Below are positions 29,801-30,903 of a stretch of DNA of 54,572 nucleotides, in pieces; within the stretch, counting starts at the first letter, position 1, and every line of letters begins with the position of its first letter. The notes below the pieces were generated by a model. It made no database searches, had not been told where the DNA came from, and was given only the letters and a program-made list of their open reading frames with translations. The stretch is from Dimargaris cristalligena (lineage: Eukaryota): positions 1 to 54,572 of the forward strand of contig ML002262.1 in the NCBI GenBank assembly GCA_003614675.1, in the 5' to 3' direction. The translations under genes and the position numbers were made by a program.

Positions 29801-30903
29801 AAAATAAAAAAATGTTATAATATTCATTACTGGTAAAAATACAGTCCATAAAGCATCTAAGATGTTTTGCATTTTCATTATGTATTATCAATGGGTGCAG
29901 TATTTGCATTATTTGCAGGATATTATTATTGATCACCTAAAATATTAGGTAAAATGTATAGCGAGTTATTAGGAAAAATTCATTTTTGAACTATGTTCAT
30001 TGGAGTTTATACATTAGCTCCTTTATTATACTTAATTTTGTAATATACTAAGAGAAACATTATAATAACAATTCTGAATAGATTAAATAATCTAATATTG
30101 TTTTATTAGTAGGAGTTTCTTTTTTATAAATATCTATAATATTGCTCCTAAGAGACTAAATACAAAAAATATATATTAATAAGAAGGAAATATTTTTATA
30201 TCCAATTTATCATTTTATATTAAGAAATAGTCCATATAAAATATTTTGTAATGTAACGTTTTACAGGGAGAAACATAATGTTATTATATACGAAAATAAA
30301 ATAAATTCGTAGAGAAAAAAATCTAATCGATTATACATAACACATATATTTATGAAGAAATAATCATATTAATAAATTTAGTCCCTATGCATTTTTTAGG
30401 TTATTCTTTATAAAGGCCTAATTAAAATTTTATTATATGTGAAAAATATAAGCAAATATAATATTTTCTTTATTATATATGTTAATAATTTATTATATTC
30501 ACAGGAAATACCTTAGAGATTAAATATAAAAAATAAGTTATATATATAACATATTAAAAAATAATCCATAGAAAAAAAAAAGATATAGCTAGCAGGTCAT
30601 CCAAGAAGAATACCAGATTATCCAGATGCATTTGAAGGTTGAAATTATGTAGCATCATATGGATCAATAATTTCAATAATTTCTTTATTTTTATTTTTAT
30701 ATATTATATTTAACCAATTATCATCACAAGATATATTAGATGGATCAGTTTGAAATTTACCCGAATTTTTTAGTAACTCTTATACTATATTTGTTTCTAA
30801 TTATTCTGATTCTTTAGAATGAAATTTATCTAGTCCTCCTGCTTTCCATCAATTTAATAATTTACCTATTGCAGTAATAAAAAAAATATATATAGGTAGG
30901 TAA
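14821..30903 (+). CDS. cox1: Cytochrome c oxidase subunit 1, 17 exons: 14821-15031, 17550-17728, 18880-19029, 19858-19944, 20566-20576, 21336-21418, 22213-22226, 22585-22668, 23799-23891, 24890-25046, 25588-25613, 28072-28095, 29263-29280, 29870-30006, 30249-30262, 30382-30401, 30589-30903
   Basis: Joined exons total 1623 nt (540 aa), an uninterrupted Cox1 with [39 protein letters not shown] and PRRIPDYPD. Alternative start at 14833. Confidence 0.95.
15032..17445 (+). CDS. Intron-encoded reverse transcriptase/maturase/HNH endonuclease, in frame with cox1 exon 1
   Basis: Open with TGA=Trp; [21 protein letters not shown]...EMHHVR...PLCKDHH. Confidence 0.93.
15032..17549 (+). mobile_element. 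cox1 intron 1, group II
   Basis: 5' GTGCG, domain V gaaagccgtatgattggagacaatcacgtacggtttgg (~17473), 3' ...ccctAC. Confidence 0.95.
17729..18820 (+). CDS. Double-motif LAGLIDADG homing endonuclease, in frame with exon 2
   Basis: [10 protein letters not shown] and [10 protein letters not shown]; open with code 4. Confidence 0.9.
17729..18879 (+). mobile_element. cox1 intron 2, group I
   Basis: Exon ends in T and intron in G; cagagactg / tatagtcc P7 elements. Confidence 0.9.
19030..19857 (+). mobile_element. cox1 intron 3, group I (IB-like), no ORF
   Basis: atgctggaaac / atcagctagaaacc / tcagagactatacgttagc / gatatagtcc. Confidence 0.88.
19945..20565 (+). mobile_element. cox1 intron 4, group I, eroded ORF
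   Basis: IGS gccggc; ccagaggctatacgcc / tatagtccg; KSGIY (GIY-YIG-like) remnant. Confidence 0.82.
20577..21335 (+). mobile_element. cox1 intron 5, group I (ID-like core)
   Basis: IGS gtggtaa; tcgctacagactgggtcac...gtacagtcg; FGHYLA LAGLIDADG remnant. Confidence 0.82.
21419..22212 (+). mobile_element. cox1 intron 6, group I (ID-like core)
   Basis: Splits the TGA(Trp) codon of HLFW; tcgctacagactgggtcac...gtacagtcgg. Confidence 0.85.
22227..22584 (+). mobile_element. cox1 intron 7, group I (ID-like core), no ORF
   Basis: Between GH and PEVY; IGS gtgac; tcgctacagactggctcac...gtacagtcgg. Confidence 0.85.
22669..23739 (+). CDS. LAGLIDADG endonuclease/maturase, in frame with exon 8
   Basis: [10 protein letters not shown] and [10 protein letters not shown]; open with code 4. 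Confidence 0.9.
22669..23798 (+). mobile_element. cox1 intron 8, group I
   Basis: Between PIFG and YLGM; tcagaggccata / gatggtcc. Confidence 0.88.
23892..24889 (+). mobile_element. cox1 intron 9, group I with reduced core
   Basis: Between LDVD and TRAY; IGS gtcaat; cagagactaa / tatagtcc separated by a very short spacer. Confidence 0.88.
23945..24844 (+). CDS. Degenerate LAGLIDADG protein (299 aa), probable maturase
   Basis: Open with code 4 from its own ATG; motifs [10 protein letters not shown] and [11 protein letters not shown]-terminal [22 protein letters not shown]. Confidence 0.8.
25047..25587 (+). mobile_element. cox1 intron 10, group I (IB-like), no ORF
   Basis: atgctggtaac / aatcagcaggaaac / tcagagatttt / aaaatcc. 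Confidence 0.85.
25614..27959 (+). CDS. Intron-encoded reverse transcriptase/maturase/HNH endonuclease, in frame with exon 11
   Basis: [27 protein letters not shown]...EMHH...PLCKNCH; open with code 4. Confidence 0.93.
25614..28071 (+). mobile_element. cox1 intron 11, group II
   Basis: 5' GTGCG; domain V agagccgtatgcggggaaacttgcacgtacggttcgg (~27981); 3' cccaAC. Confidence 0.95.
28096..28926 (+). CDS. LAGLIDADG homing endonuclease, in frame with exon 12
   Basis: [10 protein letters not shown] and [10 protein letters not shown]. Confidence 0.9.
28096..29262 (+). mobile_element. cox1 intron 12, group I (ends in C, see findings)
   Basis: Between LHD and TYYVV; IGS aagt-gtcatg; gtagagactaaacgc / aatagtccg. 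Confidence 0.85.
29281..29869 (+). mobile_element. cox1 intron 13, group I (IB-like)
   Basis: caaatgggcc start; atgctggaaa / aatcagcagaaaac / tcagagactgaacgtcag / acagtcc. Confidence 0.88.
30007..30248 (+). mobile_element. cox1 intron 14, small group I (242 nt)
   Basis: IGS tacatta-gctcc pairs with both exons; agagactaa / aatagtcc. Confidence 0.85.
30263..30381 (+). mobile_element. cox1 intron 15, mini group I (119 nt)
   Basis: IGS aggga-g-aaac pairs with 3' exon tccct and 5' exon gtttt; P7 gatta/taatc; ends in G. Confidence 0.82.
30402..30588 (+). mobile_element. cox1 intron 16, mini group I (187 nt)
   Basis: IGS gcctaa vs exon ttaggt; agagattaa / ataatcc; ends in G. Confidence 0.82.

What the first reader, a model, noticed from the sequence alone, without database searches (positions are those of the whole stretch)
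30007..30588. Cluster of miniaturised group I introns (242, 119, 187 nt) with 14- and 20-nt exons
Seen: removing them restores [18 protein letters not shown]. Each keeps a U.G P1 and a terminal G; introns 14 and 15 show clear P10 pairing. Introns 15 and 16 carry a compensated P7 (gatta/taatc instead of gacta/tagtc), which implies selection on the fold. Intron 15 reduces to roughly P1/P10, P3 (tgttat/ataaca), P4 (tacgaa/ttcgta) and P7. Known: the compact self-splicing Azoarcus intron is about 200 nt. Inference: protein-dependent minimal ribozymes.
Basis: partly seen in the sequence, partly recalled or inferred. Interest (0 to 1): 0.8.

Follow-up and report, generated by a model that had tools for sequence, protein, structure and literature searches.

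The report
Three shrunken group I introns in cox1
Three very short self-splicing-type (group I) introns, one only 119 bases long, sit side by side in a mitochondrial cox1 gene and keep the essential RNA core in miniature, a small extension of an intron type already described in fungal mitochondria.

Summary
Removing 30007-30248 (242 nt), 30263-30381 (119 nt) and 30402-30588 (187 nt) joins a 14-nt and a 20-nt exon into an in-frame cox1 reading [18 protein letters not shown], gapless against Allomyces COX1. Each intron follows a U and ends in G. Each has a contiguous P10+P1 guide of 12, 10 and 8 bp, reached by 0, 4 and 60 of 20000 shuffles. The three are paralogues sharing P3, P4 and P7. Of 18 core pairs, 11 are invariant, 7 changed on both sides and none is broken. 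The 119-nt intron keeps P1, P10, P3, P4, a 3-bp P6, a helix-bulge-helix P7 and a 4-bp P8, and lacks P2, P5 and P9.

Limits: Rfam finds no group I intron anywhere in this gene, predicted folding is no better than for shuffled sequence, no RNA data or close relative was available, and helix-only descriptors match by chance in this AT-rich DNA.

Reduced 'derived' mitochondrial group I introns of 142-144 nt, 56-81-nt nuclear rDNA relics and mini-exons are already published. This is therefore a new, smaller member of a known kind. A 108-nt relative lies in nad3. Protein dependence is plausible but untested.

The parts
29870..30006 (+). cox1 exon (HFHYVLS...FIGV), ending with GU of the Val codon; its last 5 nt GGAGU form P1 of the first intron
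   Evidence: tblastn with P0006/P0059; splice model; P1 check
30007..30248 (+). 242-nt ORF-less group I intron. P1 30002-06/30017-21. P10 30010-16/30249-55 (7 bp). P3 30036-42/30161-67. P4 30046-51/30106-11. P5 30054-59/30099-104. P5a 30079-84/30089-94. P6 30112-15/30145-48. P7 G30152, bulged A30153, 30154-58 with 30228-33. No P2 and no P9; the last base is G.
   Evidence: guide test 0 of 20000 shuffles; core model hits
30249..30262 (+). 14-nt micro-exon (U AAU GUA ACG UUU U; NVTF-). Its first 7 nt pair in P10 of the upstream intron and its last 5 nt in P1 of the downstream intron.
30263..30381 (+). 119-nt group I intron. P10 30265-69/30382-86. P1 30258-62/30270-74. P3 30279-84/30337-42. P4 hairpin 30289-94/30306-11 with an 11-nt loop in place of P5. 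P6 30313-15/30322-24 (3 bp). P7 U30327, bulged C30328, 30329-33 with 30361-66. P8 30343-46/30351-54. 15-nt tail ending in G. No P2, P5 or P9.
   Evidence: all helices verified; guide test 4 of 20000; core descriptor 8 of 3000 shuffles; leave-one-out model hit 30320-30381, 21.7 bits, E 0.56
30382..30401 (+). 20-nt micro-exon (UC CCU AUG CAU UUU UUA GGU; -PMHFLG). Its first 5 nt pair in P10 of the upstream intron and its last 6 nt in P1 of the downstream intron.
30402..30588 (+). 187-nt group I intron. P1 30396-401/30416-21 (6 bp). P10 only 2 bp. P3 30428-33/30526-31. P4 30438-43/30498-503. P6 30503-05/30511-13, sharing one base with P4. P7 G30516, bulged A30517, 30518-22 with 30562-67. P8 30537-41/30546-50. 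21-nt tail ending in G.
   Evidence: guide test 60 of 20000; core model hits
30589..30903 (+). last cox1 exon ([15 protein letters not shown]... to the stop)
50834..50941 (-). Related 108-nt intron in nad3, outside the finding. U at -1 and G last. P3 UUUUAU/AUAAAA, P4 UGCAUA/UAUGCA, P7 G[A]GACUU/AAGUCC. P1 is only 4 bp.
   Evidence: Pfam nad3 hit on exon 2; sequence; in-frame 116-aa product and unique junction; core model hits E 0.014 and 0.045; P1

Best explanation
These are three paralogous, ORF-less, strongly reduced group I introns inserted at three sites within 34 nt of cox1 coding sequence. Each is most likely removed by ordinary group I chemistry. An internal guide sequence near the 5' end of the intron pairs with the end of the upstream exon (P1, splice-site U wobble-paired to G). 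Right beside it, the same guide pairs with the start of the downstream exon (P10). Guanosine bound at the G-C/A-U pairs next to the bulge in P7 attacks the 5' splice site. The terminal G then takes its place and the exons are ligated. The two micro-exons are almost fully taken up by these guide pairings: 12 of 14 nt and 11 of 20 nt. The core is kept (the P3-P7 pseudoknot with P8, and P4 with a short P6), while P2, P9 and, in the 119-nt intron, P5 are gone. The RNAs are 14-19% G+C and fold no better than shuffled sequence. I therefore infer that folding and catalysis in vivo depend on protein cofactors, either nuclear-encoded or LAGLIDADG maturases from the larger cox1 introns. Shown in silico: junctions, guide pairings, shared core and covariation. 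Inferred: the chemistry and the protein dependence.
For: Junctions restore a conserved, gapless COX1, and U(-1) and a terminal G are found in 3 of 3 introns. Contiguous P10+P1 guides of 12, 10 and 8 bp were reached by 0, 4 and 60 of 20000 shuffles. All listed helices of the 119- and 187-nt introns verify; those of the 242-nt intron verify. The 3' halves align with the R-like and S-like strings in register. Across the three introns, 18 pairs of P3, P4 and P7 comprise 11 invariant, 7 changed on both sides, 0 one-sided and 0 broken. P7 counted over six cox1 intron cores is 96.9% paired. It has 2 pairs changed on both sides, 16 of 500 shuffles reach it, and slid controls reach 0-42%. The G-C and A-U pairs next to the bulge are invariant. 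A core model built without the 119-nt intron still hits 30320-30381, ending exactly at its 3' splice site (21.7 bits, rank 9 of the whole window). The model built from window introns finds 6 hits in 49 unrelated cox1 loci, all on the coding strand. A fourth family member of 108 nt splits nad3 in frame. Unrelated organisms carry a ~1.5-kb intron at exactly the first site, GU|U AAU. Published derived mitochondrial group I introns of 142-144 nt are AU-rich, keep the core and do not splice in vitro (PMC8971849, passages).
Against: No transcript evidence exists: no RNA run was available. Rfam's Intron_gpI gives no hit at E up to 10 on the three introns. It also gives none on any other cox1 intron, so that model is blind here. 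The leave-one-out hit on the 119-nt intron has E 0.56 for the whole window. Folding energies are -29.7, -8.3 and -17.7 kcal/mol with z +0.30, -0.04 and +0.20. Helix-only descriptors are common by chance. They match 1805 and 1849 of 3000 shuffles for the 242- and 187-nt introns. Over the window they give 102 real matches against a mean of 84.3 in 30 simulated sequences. P10 of the third intron is 2 bp, and P6 (3 bp) and P8 (4 bp) of the 119-nt intron are marginal. I set the helix registers for the covariation table from ungapped flanks, because MAFFT did not align the 5' strands. All comparisons are between paralogues in one genome, with no cross-species test.
Confidence: 0.75

Rival explanations
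1. These are group I relics that no longer catalyse anything. The guide pairings and P7 remain only as recognition marks, and a dedicated protein machinery cuts and joins the RNA, as has been proposed for degenerate rDNA introns of lichen fungi.
For: Folding is no better than for shuffled sequence. Helices are very short in the 119-nt intron. The lichen paper argues for a specific splicing machinery for degenerate group I introns (PMC8527467, passages).
Against: The parts that matter for catalysis are the ones conserved or compensated. These are the G-C/A-U pairs beside the P7 bulge, the P3-P7 pseudoknot, the U.G wobble and the terminal G. A mere recognition tag would not need compensated P3, P4 and P7.
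Confidence: 0.12
2. Co-operative splicing. The 119-nt intron cannot fold alone and borrows missing domains (P5, an extended P6, P9) from the flanking introns, to which it is tethered by 14 and 20 nt, so the cluster is processed as one unit or in a fixed order.
For: The three introns lie within 582 nt, and the smallest is in the middle and lacks P2, P5 and P9. Both micro-exons are shared between guide pairings of neighbouring introns.
Against: A 108-nt family member stands alone in nad3 with no neighbouring intron. The guide pairings on each micro-exon do not overlap, so no order is imposed. I found no specific inter-intron pairing, though I did not search for one systematically.
Confidence: 0.06
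3. The model is wrong: the segments are not removed as proposed, because of a pseudogene, other junctions, editing or an assembly artefact.
For: No RNA data. One other cox1 intron by my map (28096-29262) appears to end in C rather than G, so my map is not flawless.
Against: No other cox1 copy was seen in the window by tblastn of 14700-31000 or by the Pfam scans of the remaining ORFs. The spliced frame is open and 74-78% identical to full-length COX1 proteins. The junctions are unique and obey the group I rule, and the guides match both exon ends far beyond chance.
Confidence: 0.04

Closest known systems
'Derived' mitochondrial group I introns of chytrid fungi (Spizellomyces punctatus cob intron 2, 144 nt; Rhizophydium brooksianum rnl intron 5, 142 nt), Prince et al. 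2022, PMC8971849 (Fig. 1 legend and passages read)
   Same: They are mitochondrial and A+U-rich, keep the universal core, lack peripheral domains, are missed by standard group I models, and are reported not to splice in vitro.
   Different: The introns here are shorter (119 nt, and 108 nt in nad3) and lie in protein-coding cox1 and nad3. Three paralogues sit in tandem separated by 14- and 20-nt exons. The host has a full tRNA set, and its COX1 is 74-78% identical to full-length COX1 proteins.
Small putative/degenerate group IC1 introns of nuclear SSU rDNA (Phialophora, Porpidia, Arthonia; 56-81 nt), Harris and Rogers 2011, PMC3160393 (abstract read)
   Same: They are natural group I introns shrunk far below 200 nt that keep P1, P7 and P10.
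   Different: By that abstract they have lost the rest of the core. The introns here keep P3, P4, P6, P7 and P8. The genome compartment, host gene and subgroup also differ.
Azoarcus pre-tRNA-Ile group I intron (about 200 nt; size recalled, not checked in a paper read here)
   Same: It has a compact core with few peripheral elements.
   Different: It is G+C-rich, stable, self-splicing and has P2, P5 and P9. The introns here are 14-19% G+C, lack those helices and show no predicted stability.
Mini-exons in intron-rich mitochondrial genes, Lang et al. 2023, PMC10352661 (passages read)
   Same: The paper says exons shorter than about 4 codons 'occur regularly' in mitochondrial genes and are easily missed by annotators.
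   Different: Nothing unusual here: 14 and 20 nt are within the known range. The only added point is that they are almost filled by P10 and P1 pairings.

Membership tests
Group I intron | 5' splice site follows a U that forms a U.G wobble at the end of P1 with an internal guide sequence | tested here: met
   GGAGU/GCUCC, GUUUU/GAAAC and UUAGGU/GCCUAA. P1 alone was reached by 45, 698 and 168 of 20000 shuffles.
Group I intron | Last intron nucleotide is G (omega G) | tested here: met
   3 of 3. The junctions are unique for two introns, and for the third the U/G rule picks one of two.
Group I intron | P10: the guide also pairs with the start of the 3' exon, next to P1 | tested here: met
   7 bp and 5 bp, contiguous with P1, in the first two introns. 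The third has only 2 bp, which is weak.
Group I intron | Core of the P3-P7 pseudoknot with P8, stacked on P4-P6 | tested here: met
   Helices are in the canonical order in all three. 7 of 18 P3/P4/P7 pairs are compensated and none is broken. Caveat: helix-only descriptors are not specific in this DNA.
Group I intron | P7 as helix-bulge-helix with the G-binding G-C pair | tested here: met
   G[A]GACUA/UAGUCC, U[C]GAUUA/UAAUCA and G[A]GAUUA/UAAUCC, with the G-C and A-U pairs invariant. The role in G binding is from general knowledge and was not tested.
Group I intron | Match to the curated family model (Rfam RF00028 Intron_gpI) | tested here: not met
   No hit at E up to 10. The model also misses every other cox1 intron, including the LAGLIDADG-bearing ones, so the failure says little.
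Group I intron | Splicing started by exogenous guanosine; excised intron carries it at the 5' end | not testable with these tools
   No RNA data; this needs a bench assay.
'Group I, derived' introns in the sense of Prince et al. 2022 | Universal core present, A+U-rich, weak consensus, peripheral domains missing, missed by standard subgroup models | tested here: met
   G+C is 17%, 19% and 14%. There is no P2 or P9, and no P5 in the 119-nt intron. Rfam misses them. ERPIN models were not available here.

The most novel reading that the evidence does not exclude
The 119-nt cox1 intron and the 108-nt nad3 intron are the smallest natural group I introns that still keep the whole P3-P4-P6-P7-P8 core. 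With their 187- and 242-nt paralogues they form a within-genome series of stepwise shrinkage held together by compensatory changes. The family spread to neighbouring sites without a homing endonuclease, for instance by reverse splicing. A second tandem set of paralogous introns around another 14-nt cox1 exon (21419-22584) points the same way.
Probability: 0.3. Interest if true: 0.6.

Novelty: new member of a known kind. Interest (0 to 1): 0.42.

Why it matters
If confirmed by RNA data, these introns lower the known size of core-complete organellar group I introns from about 142 nt to 108-119 nt. They also offer a natural series (242, 187, 119, 108 nt) that shows which parts can be lost while P3, P4 and P7 stay under selection. 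That is useful for work on minimal ribozyme scaffolds and on how proteins replace lost RNA domains. It also gives test cases for mitochondrial annotation, where standard models miss such introns and their mini-exons. It does not change how group I introns are understood.

Tried and rejected
- **Rfam:** cmscan at gathering score and at E up to 10 gave no Intron_gpI hit anywhere in cox1. That includes the introns with LAGLIDADG ORFs, so the result is uninformative.
- **RNA evidence:** no RNA holder was listed for 29200-31200, so read laying could not be used.
- **Close relatives:** the metagenome scan with the last exon returned 80 loci, best 55% amino-acid identity. The protein search reached at best 61%. 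Neither gave a close relative, so no cross-species covariation test was possible.
- **Thermodynamic stability:** z was -0.04, +0.20 and +0.30, giving no support from energy.
- **Helix-only descriptors:** they are not specific in this DNA (1805 and 1849 of 3000 shuffles; 102 real against a mean of 84.3 simulated). I do not count helices alone as evidence for the two longer introns.
- **R-like and S-like motif searches with mismatches:** no more matches than chance, 122 against 124.7 and 75 against 82.0.
- **MAFFT on whole introns or 5' halves:** it did not put the paired strands in register. The covariation table therefore uses fixed coordinates in a script.
- **Single-sequence covariance model of the 119-nt intron**: it found only itself, not the 187-nt or nad3 introns, so it was useless for finding more members.
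- **Literature:** searches for 'smallest group I intron' and variants gave nothing usable. I therefore cannot state that 119 or 108 nt is a record. Supplementary tables of PMC8971849 were not seen and may list shorter introns.
- **Sequence comparison with the ~1.5-kb introns at the same site in L060, L077 and L079:** the insertion site is shared, but by eye I saw no alignable sequence beyond the core motifs; no alignment was run.

Full report
**Context.** The window is A+T-rich mitochondrial DNA of fungal type. It has a tRNA-Trp(UCA), so TGA reads as Trp. It carries a perfect 3614-nt inverted repeat at both ends, two group II domain V hits inside cox1, and nad4L, cox1, nad4 and nad3. cox1 runs from about 14833 to 30903 on the + strand. 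I mapped its exons with full-length COX1 proteins recovered by a homology search with the last exon. My model from exon 3 to the stop is 1233 nt, in frame and without an internal stop. It is 74% identical over 403 residues to Allomyces COX1 and up to 78% identical to unnamed full-length proteins. I placed 15 introns, so the three in question are numbers 13-15 by my count rather than 14-16.

**The observation.** The three segments are 30007-30248 (242 nt), 30263-30381 (119 nt) and 30402-30588 (187 nt), separated by exons of 14 and 20 nt.
- Removing them gives ...[22 protein letters not shown]... in frame.
- 99 of 120 homologues carry this motif uninterrupted.
- Allomyces reads [22 protein letters not shown], and the alignment is gapless here.
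- The junctions that give this mRNA are unique for the second and third intron. For the first, one of two choices obeys the group I rule.
- All three then follow a U and end in G.

**Guide sequences.** Each intron carries, within its first 21 nt, a stretch that pairs with the last 5-6 nt of the upstream exon. The splice-site U sits opposite a G (P1). Directly 5' of that stretch, the intron pairs with the first nucleotides of the downstream exon (P10).
- Pairings: 7+5 bp, 5+5 bp and 2+6 bp.
- With exons fixed and the intron dinucleotide-shuffled, a contiguous guide at least this long appeared in 0, 4 and 60 of 20000 trials.
- The junctions were fixed by the protein alignment and not by the RNA model, so this test is independent.
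- The 14-nt exon is used over 12 nt and the 20-nt exon over 11 nt by these pairings, without overlap.

**Core.** The 3' halves of the three introns align in register, from P6' through the R-like string, P3', P8 and the S-like string to the terminal G. Each intron has, in canonical order, P3, P4, a short P6, a P7 made of one outer pair, one bulged base and five pairs, P3' two or three bases after P7, and P8.
- All three lack P2 and P9.
- The 242- and 187-nt introns have a roughly 50-nt extension on P4.
- In the 119-nt intron, P4 is closed by an 11-nt loop, P6 is 3 bp and P8 is 4 bp.
The 119-nt intron also has P6, P8 and the bulged P7, so it is a complete miniature core rather than only P1/P10/P3/P4/P7.

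**Covariation.** I set the register from ungapped homologous flanks.
- The 18 pairs of P3, P4 and P7 comprise 11 invariant pairs, 7 changed on both sides with the pair kept, none changed on one side and none broken.
- The G-C and A-U pairs next to the P7 bulge never vary.
- In the 119-nt intron both the outer P7 pair (G-C to U-A) and the third pair (C-G to U-A) are compensated.
- On a MAFFT alignment of six cox1 intron cores, P7 is 96.9% paired, with two pairs changed on both sides. 16 of 500 shuffles reach this, and slid controls give 0-42% paired.
- Other cox1 introns add further P7 variants: GAUUU/AAAUC and GACUG/CAGUC.

**Covariance models.**
- A model of the P7-P8 region built without the 119-nt intron still hits 30320-30381, ending exactly at its 3' splice site. 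The score is only 21.7 bits, with E 0.56 for the whole window, at rank 9.
- The model built from the window's introns finds 6 hits in 49 unrelated metagenomic cox1 loci, all on the coding strand.

**Evidence against, or not helpful.**
- Rfam's group I model finds nothing here, but it also finds nothing in any other cox1 intron.
- Predicted folding energies are no better than for shuffled sequence.
- Descriptors made of helices alone match most shuffles of the two longer introns (1805 and 1849 of 3000). For the 119-nt intron they match only 8 of 3000.
- Over the whole window such a descriptor gives 102 matches against a mean of 84.3 in simulated sequence.
- No RNA run, no whole genome and no close relative was available.
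- The case therefore rests on exon context, the guide sequences, the shared core motifs and covariation among paralogues in one genome.

**A fourth member.** nad3 on the minus strand is split by a 108-nt intron (50941-50834).
- Removing it gives an in-frame 116-residue NAD3 with a unique junction, U at -1 and G at the end.
- It has P3 UUUUAU/AUAAAA, as in the 187-nt intron, a P4 hairpin UGCAUA/UAUGCA and P7 G[A]GACUU/AAGUCC.
- Both core models hit it, at E 0.014 and 0.045.
- Its P1 is only 4 bp.
- It stands alone, which argues against the idea that the 119-nt intron must borrow domains from its neighbours.

**Mechanism.** The most likely mechanism is ordinary group I splicing, guided by P1 and P10 and catalysed by the P3-P7 core. 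Folding would be supported by proteins. [quoted passage not shown] Candidate helpers encoded in the same gene are four LAGLIDADG proteins.

**Comparison with what is known.**
- Prince et al. 2022 (PMC8971849, Fig. 1 legend and passages) describe 'derived' mitochondrial group I introns of 144 and 142 nt. They keep the universal core, are A+U-rich, lack peripheral domains and escape the standard models.
- Harris and Rogers 2011 (PMC3160393, abstract) describe 56-81-nt nuclear rDNA relics with only P1, P7 and P10.
- Lang et al. 2023 (PMC10352661, passages) state that mini-exons of under about 4 codons occur regularly in mitochondrial genes.

The kind is therefore known. What is new is the smaller size with a full core, the tandem paralogous arrangement and the internal covariation series. 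My literature searches found no shorter core-complete mitochondrial example. They cover open-access text only, and supplements were closed.

**Verdict.** Protein dependence is plausible but untested. Novelty is modest.

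Noticed in passing
window 50834-50941 (-): A 108-nt group I-type intron splits nad3 (exons 51065-50942 and 50833-50610). It belongs to the same family as the cox1 mini-introns and is shorter than any of them.
   Followed up: yes
window 21419-22584 (+): A second 14-nt cox1 micro-exon (22213-22226, completing WFFGH) lies between introns 21419-22212 and 22227-22584. The 3' cores of these two introns and of the upstream intron (19956-21335) are clearly paralogous (CGCUACAGACUGG...GUACAGUCG). This is a second tandem set of related introns.
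   Followed up: partly
window 28096-29262 (+): By my exon map, the LAGLIDADG-bearing intron before the 18-nt exon TYYVVA (29263-29280) ends in C, not G. No alternative junction keeps HD-TYYVVA. This is unexplained: a real exception, a missed tiny element or a sequence error.
   Followed up: partly
window 4-3617 and 50956-54569: A perfect 3614-nt inverted repeat reaches within 3 nt of both ends of the window and carries the tRNA cluster. This suggests a linear chromosome with terminal inverted repeats, or an assembly effect. The repeat ends inside nad3 exon 1, so a truncated copy of the nad3 start should lie near 3508-3617 (position calculated from the repeat, not checked).
   Followed up: no
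window 6800-6973 (-): A second nad3-like open frame, matching Pfam Oxidored_q4 at E 6e-10 over profile positions 32-80. It may be a duplicate or a pseudogene fragment.
   Followed up: no
window 30112-30116 and 30144-30148: P6 of the 242-nt intron (GGAGU...GCUCC) repeats the sequence of its own P1, including the U.G. The minimum-energy fold pairs the guide with this internal copy instead of the exon. It may be a competing fold or a P1 mimic.
   Followed up: no
window 24843-24889 (+): In the intron 23892-24889, the two P7 strands (within GAGACUA and UAGUCC) are only 14 nt apart, which leaves almost no room for P8. This is another sign of core reduction in this genome.
   Followed up: no
window 5400-14700 and 34500-50400: These are long stretches without Pfam-recognisable ORFs of 45 aa or more. 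Rfam finds no rRNA in the window at gathering score. cob, cox2, cox3, atp6 and most nad genes were not found. They may lie on another molecule, be highly split or be very divergent.
   Followed up: partly
L020 4242-4438: An environmental cox1 carries a 197-nt ORF-less intron between P and Q of TFMP|QHFLG, 5 nt downstream of the 119-nt intron's site. L017 has a 1.4-kb intron at that same site.
   Followed up: partly
window 15032-17549 and 25614-28071 (+): Two group II introns with reverse transcriptase/maturase ORFs lie in cox1. The second is flanked by exons of 26 and 24 nt. In all, six cox1 exons are shorter than 30 nt.
   Followed up: partly
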